From the NCBI RefSeq assembly GCF_013167455.1, contig NZ_CP038328.1: a stretch of DNA of 64,000 bases; one strand, written 5' to 3'. Both the position numbers and the translations under genes were made by a program. Below, piece by piece: positions 23,992 to 27,465 of this stretch. The notes below the pieces were generated by a model. It worked only from the letters and a program-made list of their open reading frames with translations. It made no database searches and was not told where the DNA came from. Position 1 is the stretch's first letter, and every line of letters begins with the position of its first letter. The DNA is from Escherichia coli O157:H7 (GTDB lineage: Bacteria; Pseudomonadota; Gammaproteobacteria; Enterobacterales; Enterobacteriaceae).

Positions 23992-25644
23992 ATGTTAGCG
24001 CAGCTTTTTGAGCAGTTGTTTCAATCGATAGACTCTACACTGATCACCAATATTTTCATCTGGGCTGTTATATTCGTATTTTTATCAGCGTGGTGGTGTG
24101 ACAAAAAAAATATACATAGTAAGTTTAGAGAATATGCTCCAACCTTAATGGGGGCATTAGGTATTCTGGGTACTTTCATTGGTATTATTATTGGTTTACT
24201 CAATTTTAATACCGAAAGTATTGATACCAGCATCCCCGTATTATTAGGTGGCCTAAAAACAGCATTCATTACAAGCATTGTAGGTATGTTTTTTGCCATT
24301 TTATTTAATGGAATGGATGCTTTCTTTTTTGCCAATAAACGAAGTGCGTTAGCAGAAAATAACCCTGAATCTGTTACACCTGAACATATCTATCATGAAT
24401 TAAAAGAGCAGAACCAGACTCTGACTAAATTAGTCTCGGGTATTAACGGTGATAGTGAAGGTTCTCTTATTGCTCAAATAAAATTACTACGTACTGAGAT
24501 TAGCGATTCCTCGCAGGCACAATTAGCTAATCACACTCATTTCAGTAATAAGCTTTGGGAACAACTTGAACAATTTGCAGATCTAATGGCAAAAGGTGCT
24601 ACAGAACAAATTATTGATGCTTTGCGACAAGTCATTATTGATTTTAATCAAAATTTAACTGAACAGTTTGGTGAAAACTTTAAAGCTCTTGATGCCTCTG
24701 TAAAAAAACTTGTTGAGTGGCAGGGAAATTATAAAACGCAAATTGAGCAGATGTCAGAACAATATCAACAAAGTGTCGAGTCCCTGGTTGAAACAAAAAC
24801 TGCGGTTGCAGGGATTTGGGAAGAATGTAAAGAAATTCCTCTGGCTATGTCTGAACTGCGTGAAGTGCTTCAGGTGAACCAACATCAAATCAGCGAACTC
24901 TCCCGCCATTTAGAAACCTTTGTCGCCATCCGCGATAAAGCTACAACCGTATTACCTGAAATACAGAACAAAATGGCTGAAGTGGGTGAACTGCTGAAAT
25001 CCGGAGCTGCAAATGTTAGTGCATCTCTTGAGCAAACCAGCCAGCAAATACTTCTTAATGCAGATTCAATGCGCGTTGCCCTGGATGAAGGTACCGAAGG
25101 ATTCAGACAATCGGTTACCCAAACACAACAAGCATTTGCCTCGATGGCACATGATGTCAGCAATTCCTCCGAAACCCTAACCAGCACGTTAGGTGAAACA
25201 ATTACTGAAATGAAACAAAGTGGTGAAGAATTCCTGAAATCACTAGAGTCGCACTCGAAAGAATTGCATAGAAATATGGAACAAAATACGACGAATGTGA
25301 TTGATATGTTCAGTAAGACTGGTGAAAAGATTAACCATCAACTATCCAGTAATGCCGATAATATGTTTGATTCAATCCAGACATCATTTGATAAGGCAAG
25401 TGCAGGGCTGACTTCTCAAGTCAGAGAATCAATTGAAAAATTTGCTCTATCCATCAACGAGCAGTTACATGCTTTTGAGCAAGCAACTGAACGTGAAATG
25501 AACCGTGAAATGCAATCATTAGGTAATGCTCTGCTTTCAATCAGCAAAGGTTTTGTCGGTAACTATGAAAAACTTATTAAAGATTACCAAATAGTTATGG
25601 GACAGTTACAAGCATTAATTTCTGCTAATAAACATCGCGGGTAA
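23992..25644 (+). CDS. zorA: ZorA-like: MotA/ExbB/TolQ-type membrane protein with long C-terminal coiled-coil tail
   Basis: Track ORF trimmed to the ATG at 23992 (MLAQLFEQ). N-terminal TM helices with MotA-like LGILGTFIGIIIGL and AFITSIVGMFFAI; ~400-aa E/Q/L-rich helical tail. Confidence 0.75.
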   Translation: MLAQLFEQLFQSIDSTLITNIFIWAVIFVFLSAWWCDKKNIHSKFREYAPTLMGALGILGTFIGIIIGLLNFNTESIDTSIPVLLGGLKTAFITSIVGMFFAILFNGMDAFFFANKRSALAENNPESVTPEHIYHELKEQNQTLTKLVSGINGDSEGSLIAQIKLLRTEISDSSQAQLANHTHFSNKLWEQLEQFADLMAKGATEQIIDALRQVIIDFNQNLTEQFGENFKALDASVKKLVEWQGNYKTQIEQMSEQYQQSVESLVETKTAVAGIWEECKEIPLAMSELREVLQVNQHQISELSRHLETFVAIRDKATTVLPEIQNKMAEVGELLKSGAANVSASLEQTSQQILLNADSMRVALDEGTEGFRQSVTQTQQAFASMAHDVSNSSETLTSTLGETITEMKQSGEEFLKSLESHSKELHRNMEQNTTNVIDMFSKTGEKINHQLSSNADNMFDSIQTSFDKASAGLTSQVRESIEKFALSINEQLHAFEQATEREMNREMQSLGNALLSISKGFVGNYEKLIKDYQIVMGQLQALISANKHRG

Positions 25645-25650
25645 TCGATC

Positions 25651-26358
25651 ATGGATAAGATTATAGGGAAACAATTACCTAAAAAAGATCAAGATAATGA
25701 ACATTGGGTATCCATGTCGGACCTAATGGCTGGGCTGATGATGGTTTTTATGTTCATATCTATTGCTTATATGCACTACGTACGTATTGAAAAAGAAAAA
25801 ATTAAAGAAGTTGCCGTAGCCTACGAGAATGCTCAGTTACAGCTTTATAATGCTCTGGATATTGAGTTTGCAAAGGATTTACAAGACTGGGATGCAGAGA
25901 TCGATAAACAGACTCTGGAGGTTCGATTTAAATCACCGGATGTTTTATTTGGCTTAGGAAGCACAGAGCTAAAACCAAAGTTTAAACTCATTCTTGACGA
26001 CTTCTTTCCTCGCTACCTAAAAGTTCTAGATAATTATCAGGAACATATTACTGAAGTCCGCATTGAAGGTCACACAAGTACTGACTGGACAGGAACAACG
26101 AATCCTGATATTGCTTATTTTAATAATATGGCACTATCGCAAGGTCGTACACGTGCAGTATTACAATACGTTTATGACATAAAAAATATCGCGACACACC
26201 AACAATGGGTTAAAAGTAAATTTGCCGCAGTAGGTTATTCATCTGCACATCCCATTCTTGATAAAACCGGCAAGGAGGATCCTAATCGCTCTCGTCGTGT
26301 CACCTTCAAAGTTGTAACAAATGCCGAGTTGCAGATTAGAAAGATTATTCAGGAGTAA
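25651..26358 (+). CDS. zorB: ZorB-like: MotB-type protein with N-terminal TM anchor and C-terminal OmpA-like domain
   Basis: Track ORF; TM segment WVSMSDLMAGLMMVFMFISIAY; OmpA-like C-terminus (RIEGHTSTDWTG...NMALSQGRTRAV). 6-bp gap after zorA. Confidence 0.75.
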   Translation: MDKIIGKQLPKKDQDNEHWVSMSDLMAGLMMVFMFISIAYMHYVRIEKEKIKEVAVAYENAQLQLYNALDIEFAKDLQDWDAEIDKQTLEVRFKSPDVLFGLGSTELKPKFKLILDDFFPRYLKVLDNYQEHITEVRIEGHTSTDWTGTTNPDIAYFNNMALSQGRTRAVLQYVYDIKNIATHQQWVKSKFAAVGYSSAHPILDKTGKEDPNRSRRVTFKVVTNAELQIRKIIQE

Positions 26359-26361
26359 GAG

Positions 26362-27465
26362 ATGAAATTATCTATCGACATTTCAGAACTTATTCAATTA
26401 GGGAAGAAAATGTTACCAGAAGGAGTCGATTTTTTTCTGGATGAATCCCCTATTGACTTTGATCCTATAGATATTGAGTTATCCACGGGTAAAGAAGTTA
26501 GTATCGAAGATCTTGACCCTGGTAGCGGGCTTATCTCTTATCATGGCCGCCAGGTTCTTTTATATATTCGGGACCATTCAGGGCGTTATGATGCGGCTAT
26601 CGTAGATGGCGAAAAAGGAAAACGTTTTCATATTGCCTGGTGCAGAACTCTTGATGAAATGCGCCATAAAAATCGATTTGAAAGGTATCATGCAACTAAC
26701 CGCATAGATGGTTTATTCGAAATTGATGATGGTTCAGGTCGGAGCCAGGATGTTGATTTACGGGTATGTATGAATTGCCTCGAACGACTTAATTATAAAG
26801 GAAGTATTGATAAACAACGAAAAAGAGAGATTTTTAAATCATTCTCATTAAATGAGTTTTTTTCAGATTATAGTACTTGTTTTCGTCATATGCCTAAGGG
26901 TATCTATGACAAAACAAATAGTGGGTATGTCGAAAACTGGAAGGAAATATCTAAAGAAATACGAGAAAAGGCAAATTATGTTTGTAATGATTGTGGCGTG
27001 AATTTATCAACCGCCAAAAACTTGTGCCATGTCCATCATAAAAATGGCATCAAATATGATAATCACCATGAAAACCTTCTTGTTCTGTGCAAGGATTGCC
27101 ATCGAAAACAGCCCCTCCACGAAGGTATATTCGTTACCCAAGCAGAGATGGCTATCATTCAACGTTTACGTTCCCAACAAGGGTTATTAAAAGCAGAATC
27201 CTGGAATGAAATATATGACCTGACTGATCCATCAGTGCATGGTGATATTAATATGATGCAACATAAAGGCTTTCAACCTCCTGTTCCTGGGTTAGATCTT
27301 CCAAACTCAGAACATGAAATTATTGCAACCGTAGAAGCTGCATGGCCAGGCCTTAAAATTGCAGTTAACCTTACTCCCGCCGAAGTCGAAGGATGGAGAA
27401 TATATACCGTGGGTGAGCTGGTTAAAGAAATACAAACAGGAGCCTTTACGCCAGCAAAATTGTAA
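26362..27465 (+). CDS. zorE: ZorE-like HNH endonuclease (367 aa)
   Basis: Track ORF; HNH motif CNDCGVNLSTAKNLCHVHHKNGIKYDNHHENLLVLCKDCH; 3-bp gap after zorB; AGGAG ribosome-binding site. Confidence 0.7.
   Translation: MKLSIDISELIQLGKKMLPEGVDFFLDESPIDFDPIDIELSTGKEVSIEDLDPGSGLISYHGRQVLLYIRDHSGRYDAAIVDGEKGKRFHIAWCRTLDEMRHKNRFERYHATNRIDGLFEIDDGSGRSQDVDLRVCMNCLERLNYKGSIDKQRKREIFKSFSLNEFFSDYSTCFRHMPKGIYDKTNSGYVENWKEISKEIREKANYVCNDCGVNLSTAKNLCHVHHKNGIKYDNHHENLLVLCKDCHRKQPLHEGIFVTQAEMAIIQRLRSQQGLLKAESWNEIYDLTDPSVHGDINMMQHKGFQPPVPGLDLPNSEHEIIATVEAAWPGLKIAVNLTPAEVEGWRIYTVGELVKEIQTGAFTPAKL

What the first reader, a model, noticed from the sequence alone, without database searches (positions are those of the whole stretch)
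23992..27465. Zorya type II-like zorA-zorB-zorE cluster
A MotA-like channel protein with an unusually long helical tail, a MotB-like protein with OmpA-type peptidoglycan-binding domain and an HNH nuclease sit in one tight operon (6-bp and 3-bp gaps). This is the architecture described for Zorya type II, and the locus is AT-rich relative to its surroundings.
Basis: partly seen in the sequence, partly recalled or inferred. Interest (0 to 1): 0.65.

Follow-up and report, generated by a model that had tools for sequence, protein, structure and literature searches.

The report
Known type II Zorya anti-phage operon

Summary
The observation and the interpretation are both correct. Window 23992-27465 (+) holds three tightly packed genes of 550, 235 and 367 aa, separated by 6-bp and 3-bp gaps. 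GC is 38.2% against 48.2% for the whole window.

All three proteins score above the curated NCBIfam equivalog cut-offs for ZorA2, ZorB2 and ZorE. They are also top hits to the PADLOC ZorA2, ZorB2 and ZorE2 models.

The DNA is 100% identical to many E. coli O157:H7 genomes in which PGAP already names the genes zorA2, zorB2 and zorE. The proteins are identical to those of strain EDL933 (z5894-z5896, O-island 172). Deleting those genes in EDL933 abolishes defence against T7-like phages. The proteins are also 99.6-99.7% identical to the E. coli ATCC 8739 system used for the published mechanistic work.

Every functionally tested residue sits at the same position:
- ZorB: D24, H141, S143, R215, R230.
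- ZorE: H90, Y189, H226, K231, H247, H253 and others.

No flagellar, Tol or Exb genes are nearby. The neighbours are Druantia III and ARMADA II, the known defence island at tRNA-Leu (leuX).

Verdict: already known, low interest.

The parts
23781..23991 (.). 211-bp divergent intergenic region between druH (- strand) and zorA (+ strand); presumed promoter region of zorABE
   Evidence: There are sigma-70-like matches on the + strand at 23792-23821 (10/12) and 23869-23896 (9/12, with TG). The number of such sites in the region is no higher than in shuffles, so these are candidates only. zorABE is described as divergently transcribed from druHE in EDL933.
23992..25644 (+). zorA2: MotA-like membrane subunit (three hydrophobic segments within residues 12-114) with a ~435-residue alpha-helical cytoplasmic tail; 550 aa
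   Evidence: NCBIfam NF041792 ZorA2 scores 1139.6 bits against a cut-off of 700, covering 1-550/550. PADLOC ZorA2 1.1e-302. Pfam MotA_ExbB at residues 51-110. Homologous to S. kujiense type II ZorA, PDB 8VVI, E 1.7e-37. Helical tail supported. 548/550 identical to ATCC 8739 ZorA and identical to the EDL933 protein.
25651..26358 (+). zorB2: MotB-like subunit with one TM helix carrying Asp24 and a C-terminal OmpA-type peptidoglycan-binding domain; 235 aa
   Evidence: NCBIfam NF041787 ZorB2 scores 443.8 bits against a cut-off of 400. PADLOC ZorB2 2.2e-104. Pfam OmpA at residues 99-213. PDB 8VVI chain A, E 1.5e-52. D24, H141, S143, R215 and R230 are all present. 234/235 identical to ATCC 8739 ZorB.
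26362..27465 (+). zorE: soluble effector with an N-terminal domain, a central zinc-finger HNH nuclease (residues ~185-262) and a ~95-residue C-terminal extension; 367 aa
   Evidence: NCBIfam NF041791 ZorE scores 694.1 bits against a cut-off of 600. PADLOC ZorE2 4.2e-176. PHROG HNH families down to E 1.1e-9. The CxxC/HH/N/CxxCH motif and all 12 published mutagenesis positions are conserved. 366/367 identical to ATCC 8739 ZorE.
20421..23780 (-). druH (Druantia type III), divergent neighbour and published synergy partner of Zorya II; not part of Zorya itself
   Evidence: PADLOC DruH3 E 0, 2554.9 bits. PGAP names it an 'STY4851/ECs_5259 family protein'. The synergy is described in PMC13192584.
14107..20421 (-). 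druE (Druantia type III helicase-nuclease); context and synergy partner
   Evidence: PADLOC DruE3 E 0, 2184.9 bits. End coordinates follow the PGAP annotation. druE-druH-zorABE is collinear in 502 of 5426 complete E. coli genomes.

Best explanation
This is a canonical type II Zorya anti-phage defence operon (zorA2-zorB2-zorE) on the leuX-associated defence island of E. coli O157:H7 (O-island 172 in EDL933).

Mechanism, taken from work on the 99.6-99.7% identical ATCC 8739 system and on homologues:
1. Five ZorA and two ZorB subunits form an inner-membrane, ion-driven complex resembling a flagellar stator.
2. The ZorB OmpA-like domain dimer binds peptidoglycan.
3. The five ZorA C-termini bundle into a long helical rod that reaches into the cytoplasm.
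4. Phage attack on the envelope is thought to let ZorB engage peptidoglycan and open the channel. Ion flow past ZorB Asp24 then turns or rearranges ZorA and its rod.
5. This recruits the soluble HNH enzyme ZorE to the membrane at the infection site.
6. The high local concentration of ZorE nicks phage DNA, and also host DNA, and stops the infection. The system is effective mainly against T7-like podoviruses.

Shown in the literature: each gene, D24, the peptidoglycan-binding residues and the tail are all required; the complex is 5:2; ZorE nicks DNA in vitro; ZorE moves to the membrane on infection.

Inferred: the nature of the sensed signal, actual rotation of ZorA, and how the rod engages ZorE.

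Shown here: the identity of the genes, conservation of all tested residues, the genomic context and the distribution.
For: Family assignment: with all three NCBIfam equivalog cut-offs exceeded. Pfam and PHROG domains. Structural homologues 8VVI (type II ZorAB) and 8QYx (type I ZorA).

DNA identity and existing annotation: 100% identical DNA annotated zorA2/zorB2/zorE in RefSeq, present in 591 of 5426 complete E. coli genomes. Proteins identical to EDL933, with one synonymous difference at window 25602. Two, one and one substitutions relative to ATCC 8739 ECOLC_RS20900-20910.

Residue checks: ZorB D24/H141/S143/R215/R230 and ZorE H90/E99/Y109/Y189/H226/K231/N234/H235/N238/L239/H247/H253 are all present at the published numbers.

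Literature: PMC11890865 for the 5:2 complex, the D24, peptidoglycan-binding and tail requirements, the ZorE nickase activity and membrane recruitment. bioRxiv 10.1101/2025.09.22.677730 for the zorA, zorB, zorE and zorABE deletions in EDL933, each of which loses T7 resistance, and for a 100-1000-fold EOP effect on Autographiviridae. PMC11946911 for type I ZorAB as a proton-driven motor with a signalling tail.
Against: Nothing found here contradicts the assignment. The caveats concern the mechanism, not the identity.

Whether Zorya clears phage directly or works by damaging the host is disputed between studies. The sensing signal and rotation of ZorA are hypotheses. Pfam's own HNH models do not reach significance on ZorE. 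No solved structure matches ZorE by sequence. My single-sequence AlphaFold models were of low confidence.
Confidence: 0.92

Rival explanations
1. The MotA/MotB-like pair is a flagellar stator or a Tol/Exb-type energy transducer, and the HNH gene is an unrelated neighbour.
For: There are weak family-level similarities: Pfam MotA_ExbB (E 1.6e-6), and sub-threshold NCBIfam hits of ZorB to MotB, MotS and MotD at 27-40 bits against cut-offs of 259-300.
Against: All of those hits fall far below their cut-offs, while the Zorya equivalogs are exceeded. No flagellar, TolR/TolA/Pal or ExbD/TonB genes lie in the annotated ~60 kb. The three genes travel together, at a different chromosomal site in ATCC 8739 and in 529 E. 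coli genomes. zorE is genetically required together with zorA and zorB for defence.
Confidence: 0.01
2. Zorya II works as originally proposed for Zorya. ZorAB opens as an unregulated ion channel that depolarises and kills the infected cell (abortive infection), and ZorE is accessory.
For: ZorAB is an ion-conducting complex and D24 is required. [quoted passage not shown]
Against: No depolarisation or permeabilisation was detected with DiBAC4(3) or propidium iodide, with or without infection. ZorE is essential and supplies the DNA-damaging activity.
Confidence: 0.04
3. On this island the main role of ZorE is as an extra nuclease for the adjacent Druantia III system, acting independently of ZorAB. 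The ZorAB-dependent route would then be secondary.
For: For phage Bas37, DruE, DruH and ZorE suffice for the full combined phenotype without ZorAB. This ZorE carries the C-terminal extension typical of Druantia-associated ZorE. The match to the 375-position PADLOC profile covers residues 1-363, whereas matches to the 282-283-position ZorE profiles end at residue 258-275. About 95% of E. coli genomes with this zorABE also hold druHE next to it (502 against 529 genomes).
Against: [quoted passage not shown] Seventeen E. coli strains carry Zorya II alone. No stable ZorE-Druantia complex was detected. This reading adds to the canonical mechanism rather than replacing it.
Confidence: 0.1

Closest known systems
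Zorya type II of E. coli O157:H7 EDL933 (z5894-z5896, O-island 172)
   Same: The ZorA, ZorB and ZorE proteins are identical. The flanking genes are the same: druHE, armABC, a nanM fragment, a PT-DNA restriction endonuclease, IS629, an integrase and leuX. The DNA is 99.995% identical over 21.6 kb.
   Different: There is one synonymous base difference in zorA (window 25602 A, EDL933 G). EDL933 also has about 165 more bases than the window at the junction next to the IS629 insertion.
Zorya type II of E. coli ATCC 8739 (ECOLC_RS20900-20910), the system used for the mechanistic work in PMC11890865
   Same: The protein lengths match (550, 235 and 367 aa). Identity is 548/550, 234/235 and 366/367. 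The gene order is the same, with the same armABCD-druHE neighbours and the same nanM fragment downstream.
   Different: The substitutions are ZorA Q220E and S470G, ZorB L65I and ZorE P314Q; none is at a tested residue. The module lies next to cadC and is flanked by IS elements, not at leuX.
Sulfuricurvum kujiense type II ZorAB (PDB 8VVI)
   Same: It belongs to the same subtype and is a 5:2 complex. ZorB aligns over residues 13-234 (E 1.5e-52) and ZorA over residues 42-383 (E 1.7e-37).
   Different: Its ZorA is shorter (378 aa against 550 aa), so its tail is shorter. The sequences are distant.
Zorya type I (E. coli ZorABCD; PDB 8QYx series)
   Same: It shares the ZorA5B2 peptidoglycan-anchored motor, the long ZorA tail and recruitment of a nuclease effector. 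There is weak sequence similarity in the ZorA TM core (E ~1e-5).
   Different: Its effectors are ZorC and ZorD (a DNA-binding protein plus an SNF2/Mrr-like nuclease), not the single HNH ZorE. ZorA is larger, at ~700 aa. The type I NCBIfam and PADLOC models score far below the type II models on these proteins.
Flagellar stator MotAB and ExbBD/TolQR 5:2 motors
   Same: They share the MotA/ExbB channel fold, a conserved Asp in the single TM helix of the B subunit and, for MotB, an OmpA-like peptidoglycan-binding domain.
   Different: They have no long cytoplasmic tail, no nuclease partner and no role in motility or transport for this locus. The curated thresholds for MotB, MotS and MotD are not met.

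Membership tests
Zorya type II (ZorA2-ZorB2-ZorE) | ZorA2 protein: MotA/ExbB-like TM core plus a long C-terminal helical tail | tested here: met
   NCBIfam equivalog NF041792 scores 1139.6 bits against a cut-off of 700, with full-length coverage. PADLOC ZorA2 1.1e-302. Pfam PF01618. The tail has 435 residues and 4 prolines and is predicted helical, though the model confidence is low.
Zorya type II (ZorA2-ZorB2-ZorE) | ZorB2 protein: single TM helix with the ion-conducting Asp, plus an OmpA-like peptidoglycan-binding domain with the residues needed for binding | tested here: met
   NF041787 scores 443.8 bits against a cut-off of 400. Pfam OmpA E 3.8e-8. D24, H141, S143, R215 and R230 are present (their roles are described).
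Zorya type II (ZorA2-ZorB2-ZorE) | ZorE effector with an HNH nuclease domain, in place of ZorC/ZorD (type I) or ZorF/ZorG (type III) | tested here: met
   NF041791 scores 694.1 bits against a cut-off of 600. PADLOC ZorE2 4.2e-176. PHROG HNH families down to E 1.1e-9. The catalytic and zinc-binding residues are conserved. The Pfam HNH models alone are not significant.
Zorya type II (ZorA2-ZorB2-ZorE) | The three genes are contiguous on one strand in the order zorA-zorB-zorE | tested here: met
   The gaps are 6 bp and 3 bp, all three genes are on the + strand, and there are no intervening ORFs.
Zorya type II (ZorA2-ZorB2-ZorE) | Confers phage resistance that depends on all three genes | not testable with these tools
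   This is published for identical proteins in EDL933: the zorA, zorB, zorE and zorABE deletions each lose T7 resistance (10.1101/2025.09.22.677730). It is also published for the 99.6-99.7% identical ATCC 8739 system (PMC11890865).
Zorya type II (ZorA2-ZorB2-ZorE) | ZorA5B2 stoichiometry and a pentameric tail bundle | not testable with these tools
   This was solved for the S. kujiense homologue (PDB 8VVI), to which both proteins here align. It is inferred for this locus.
Flagellar stator MotAB or Tol/Exb motor (considered and rejected) | Proteins reach the family thresholds, and partner genes (fliG and the flagellar regulon, or tolA/tolR/pal, or exbD/tonB) are present | tested here: not met
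   MotB, MotS and MotD models score 27-40 bits against cut-offs of 259-300. No such partner genes appear in the annotated neighbourhood.

The most novel reading that the evidence does not exclude
The last ~95 residues of this ZorE (about 273-367) lie outside the matches to the shorter (282-283-position) ZorE profiles. A 2026 preprint reports this region as typical of Druantia-associated ZorE. It could be a separate functional module, either a second nuclease-like site or an adaptor, that lets Druantia III use ZorE without ZorAB. In that case this island would encode a physically wired two-system network rather than two independent systems. The authors of PMC13192584 have already hypothesised this, so even if true it would be a confirmation rather than a discovery from this window.
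Probability: 0.3. Interest if true: 0.35.

Novelty: already known. Interest (0 to 1): 0.08.

Why it matters
It shows that a reader working from raw sequence alone recognised a real defence system correctly, but it adds no new biology. The locus is annotated by NCBI's pipeline. It is present in about 11% of complete E. coli genomes. It has been knocked out in the same lineage (EDL933), and a near-identical allele has been dissected structurally and biochemically.

Its practical relevance is already documented. Together with Druantia III and ARMADA II, it contributes to the phage resistance of enterohaemorrhagic E. coli O157:H7, which matters for phage therapy and biocontrol.

Tried and rejected
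1. Pfam on ZorE: the HNH models did not reach significance (HNH_3, E 0.08). PHROG, PADLOC and NCBIfam profiles were needed to confirm the HNH domain.

2. PDB sequence search with ZorE found nothing. A search with only the HNH segment at E <= 10 returned spurious C2H2 zinc-finger and capsid hits.

3. Single-sequence AlphaFold2 gave a mean pLDDT of 35.9 for ZorE, which is unusable, so no fold search was run. For ZorA it gave a mean pLDDT of 51.8, and I used only the secondary-structure string, as weak support for a helical tail.

4. A Fourier test for a global 3.5-3.67-residue hydrophobic periodicity in the ZorA tail was no stronger than in shuffles. I therefore make no claim of a regular heptad coiled coil from sequence alone.

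5. The promoter and terminator scan of 23600-27900 found no more sites than in shuffles and no terminator after zorE.

6. I first looked for the ATCC 8739 Zorya system at leuX, and it is not there. Coordinates from a supplement of PMC11890865 placed it next to cadC.

7. From memory I had taken the Sakai element to be SpLE6. The record annotates it as SpLE5.

8. The flagellar, Tol or Exb reading was rejected on family thresholds and genomic context.
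Full report
**1. The observation**

| Gene | Coordinates | Length |
|---|---|---|
| zorA | 23992..25644 | 550 aa |
| zorB | 25651..26358 | 235 aa |
| zorE | 26362..27465 | 367 aa |

The mechanical ORF list extends the first ORF to a GTG at 23935. The ATG at 23992 is the start used by PGAP, and it gives the full 1-550/550 match to the family profile. The intergenic gaps are 6 bp and 3 bp. The operon is 38.2% GC, against 48.2% for the window and 45.6% for the neighbouring druHE genes. The AT-richness claim therefore holds.

**2. Domain content**

ZorA has a Pfam MotA_ExbB match at residues 51-110 (E 1.6e-6). A hydropathy scan finds three hydrophobic segments within residues 12-114. 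The remaining ~435 residues have only four prolines. A low-confidence AlphaFold2 model (mean pLDDT 51.8) predicts them as almost continuous alpha-helix, and I use only its secondary structure. Weak Pfam and PHROG hits to apolipoproteins and tape-measure proteins fit a long amphipathic helical region and nothing more.

ZorB has one N-terminal TM helix and a Pfam OmpA domain at residues 99-213 (E 3.8e-8).

ZorE is not recognised by Pfam's HNH models (E 0.08). Seventeen PHROG HNH-endonuclease families do match residues ~185-262 (best E 1.1e-9). The zinc-finger HNH signature C208xxC...H225-H226...N234/N238...C243xxC-H247 is visible in the sequence.

**3. Family assignment**

PADLOC gives ZorA2 at 1.1e-302, ZorB2 at 2.2e-104 and ZorE2 at 4.2e-176. 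All three NCBIfam equivalog models are exceeded:

| Model | Score (bits) | Curated cut-off (bits) |
|---|---|---|
| ZorA2 | 1139.6 | 700 |
| ZorB2 | 443.8 | 400 |
| ZorE | 694.1 | 600 |

Type I and type III Zorya models, and the MotB, MotS and MotD models, score far below their thresholds. The closest solved structure is the type II ZorAB complex of Sulfuricurvum kujiense, PDB 8VVI. ZorB matches it at E 1.5e-52 and ZorA at E 1.7e-37. ZorE has no sequence relative in the PDB.

**4. Provenance and prior knowledge**

The 3.8-kb region is 100% identical to many E. coli O157:H7 chromosomes in which PGAP already names the genes zorA2, zorB2 and zorE. It occurs in 591 of 5426 complete E. coli genomes, and in 529 of them at 80% coverage or more.

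Compared with EDL933, the window is 99.995% identical over 21.6 kb. There is a single synonymous difference, in zorA at window 25602, and the three proteins are identical.

A 2025 preprint (10.1101/2025.09.22.677730) describes exactly this locus, z5894-z5896 on O-island 172. It reports that the zorA, zorB, zorE and zorABE deletions in EDL933 Δstx1/2 each abolish resistance to T7. The system gives 100-1000-fold protection, mainly against Autographiviridae.

The E. coli ATCC 8739 system was used for the mechanistic study PMC11890865 (ECOLC_RS20900-20910, NC_010468.1 4265906-4269380). It is 548/550, 234/235 and 366/367 identical to the proteins here. None of the four substitutions (ZorA Q220E and S470G, ZorB L65I, ZorE P314Q) falls at a residue tested in the literature.

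**5. Functional residues**

Every published mutagenesis position is present at the same number in the window's proteins.
- In ZorB these are D24 (ion path) and H141, S143, R215 and R230 (peptidoglycan binding), as tested in PMC11890865.
- In ZorE these are H90, E99, Y109, Y189, H226, K231, N234, H235, N238, L239, H247 and H253, as tested in PMC13192584.

**6. Mechanism**

The following has been shown for the near-identical or homologous systems:
- ZorA and ZorB form a 5:2 complex like other ion-driven rotary motors.
- The ZorB peptidoglycan-binding domains dimerise on top of the complex and bind peptidoglycan.
- The ZorA C-termini form a pentameric rod.
- D24, the peptidoglycan-binding residues and the rod are each required for defence.
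- ZorE is a monomeric Mg/Mn-dependent nickase that prefers supercoiled DNA.
- At native expression, ZorE damages DNA only during infection and only with ZorAB present, and it moves from the cytoplasm to the membrane on infection.
- No depolarisation is seen.

For type I, ZorAB is reported to be a proton-driven motor that signals through the tail to recruit its effectors.

Three points remain inferred: what exactly is sensed in the envelope, whether ZorA really rotates, and how the rod engages ZorE. Whether the outcome is direct clearance or population-level protection at a cost to the infected cell is still debated.

**7. Context**

There are no flagellar, Tol or Exb genes in the window. The divergent neighbours are Druantia III: druH at 20421..23780 and druE at 14107..20421, both with PADLOC E = 0. 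Next come three genes that match the published ARMADA II system:
- armA, DrmD-like, 11025..13883.
- armB, a DrmMI/type IIG-like methyltransferase, 6088..11022.
- armC, a YprA/DruE-like helicase that runs off the left end of the window.

The druE-druH-zorABE block is collinear in 502 of 5426 genomes, about 95% of those that hold this zorABE. [quoted passage not shown] This ZorE has the C-terminal extension said to typify Druantia-associated ZorE. Its match to the 375-position PADLOC profile covers residues 1-363, whereas its matches to the 282-283-position ZorE profiles end at residue 258-275.

**8. Island structure (side observation)**

The tRNA-Leu(CAA) gene leuX is at 40415..40499 on the - strand. 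Its 3' 26 nt are repeated exactly at 30344-30369, next to a truncated P4-type integrase. This suggests that two elements integrated in tandem at leuX, with the Zorya, Druantia and ARMADA genes on the distal one.

An IS629/IS1203 copy with 26-nt inverted repeats sits at 37085..38396. It is absent from strain TR01 but present in EDL933 and Sakai.

In ATCC 8739 the same armABCD-druHE-zorABE-nanM-fragment block lies next to cadC rather than at leuX. The block has therefore moved as a unit.

**9. Verdict**

The feature is already known, annotated and experimentally characterised in this very lineage. Interest is low. The only partly open point is the role of the ZorE C-terminal extension, which others have already flagged.

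Noticed in passing
window 14107-23780 (- strand): This is a complete Druantia type III system, druH (1119 aa) and druE (~2104 aa), divergent from zorA. The PADLOC DruH3 and DruE3 E-values are 0. It is collinear with zorABE in 502 of 5426 complete E. coli genomes.
   Followed up: yes
window 1-13883 (- strand): Three large genes match the published ARMADA II system. They are armA (DrmD-like SNF2 helicase, 11025..13883), armB (DrmMI/type IIG-like methyltransferase of 1644 aa, 6088..11022) and armC (YprA/DruE-like helicase that runs off the left end of the window). armD lies outside the window. PADLOC-DB 2.0 has no ARMADA model, so it labels them only by resemblance.
   Followed up: partly
window 27850-28857 (+; PGAP start at 28006): Just downstream of zorE is a phosphorothioated-DNA-binding HNH restriction endonuclease (NCBIfam NF045808, 416.6 bits against a cut-off of 180). 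This is a fourth defence-type gene on the island. A nanM (N-acetylneuraminate epimerase) pseudogene fragment at ~27690-27938 sits between it and zorE. The same fragment follows zorE in ATCC 8739.
   Followed up: partly
window 30344-30369 and 40414-40439: There is an exact 26-nt direct repeat of the 3' end of tRNA-Leu(CAA) leuX. The internal copy abuts a truncated P4-type integrase (29317..30222, - strand). This suggests two integrative elements accreted in tandem at leuX, with the defence genes on the distal, integrase-decayed element.
   Followed up: partly
window 37085-38396: An IS629/IS1203 (IS3-family) insertion with 26-nt inverted repeats and an Rfam ALIL frameshift pseudoknot (37944-38060) sits at the 3' end of the island integrase gene (38393..40366). 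It is present in EDL933 and Sakai and absent from strain TR01. Only 130 genomes share this junction.
   Followed up: partly
L005 (NC_010468.1 4240001-4285000): In E. coli ATCC 8739 the same armABCD-druHE-zorABE-nanM-fragment block lies next to cadC and is flanked by IS5 and IS1 elements. Its leuX site holds only integrase and relaxase remnants. The ~30-kb defence block has therefore relocated as a unit.
   Followed up: partly
window 31441-33682 (+): Two adjacent hypothetical proteins have no PADLOC or NCBIfam family. One is 257 aa with a signal-peptide-like N-terminus and a 21-nt tandem duplication at 31936-31977. The other is 438 aa. They lie downstream of a divergent HTH regulator (30860..31324) on the proximal leuX element. 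Their function is unknown.
   Followed up: partly
window 47470-47768: Two tandem ~96-bp-spaced repeats between pepA and holC match Rfam naRNA4 (REP-derived nucleoid-associated RNA) at 47542-47617 and 47638-47713. There is also an Rfam Ysr276 hit at 46514-46708, antisense within pepA.
   Followed up: no
window 55001-56000: This is the lowest GC in the window (30.2%). It falls inside the core gene yjgL (54751..56505, - strand). It is unrelated to the defence island.
   Followed up: no
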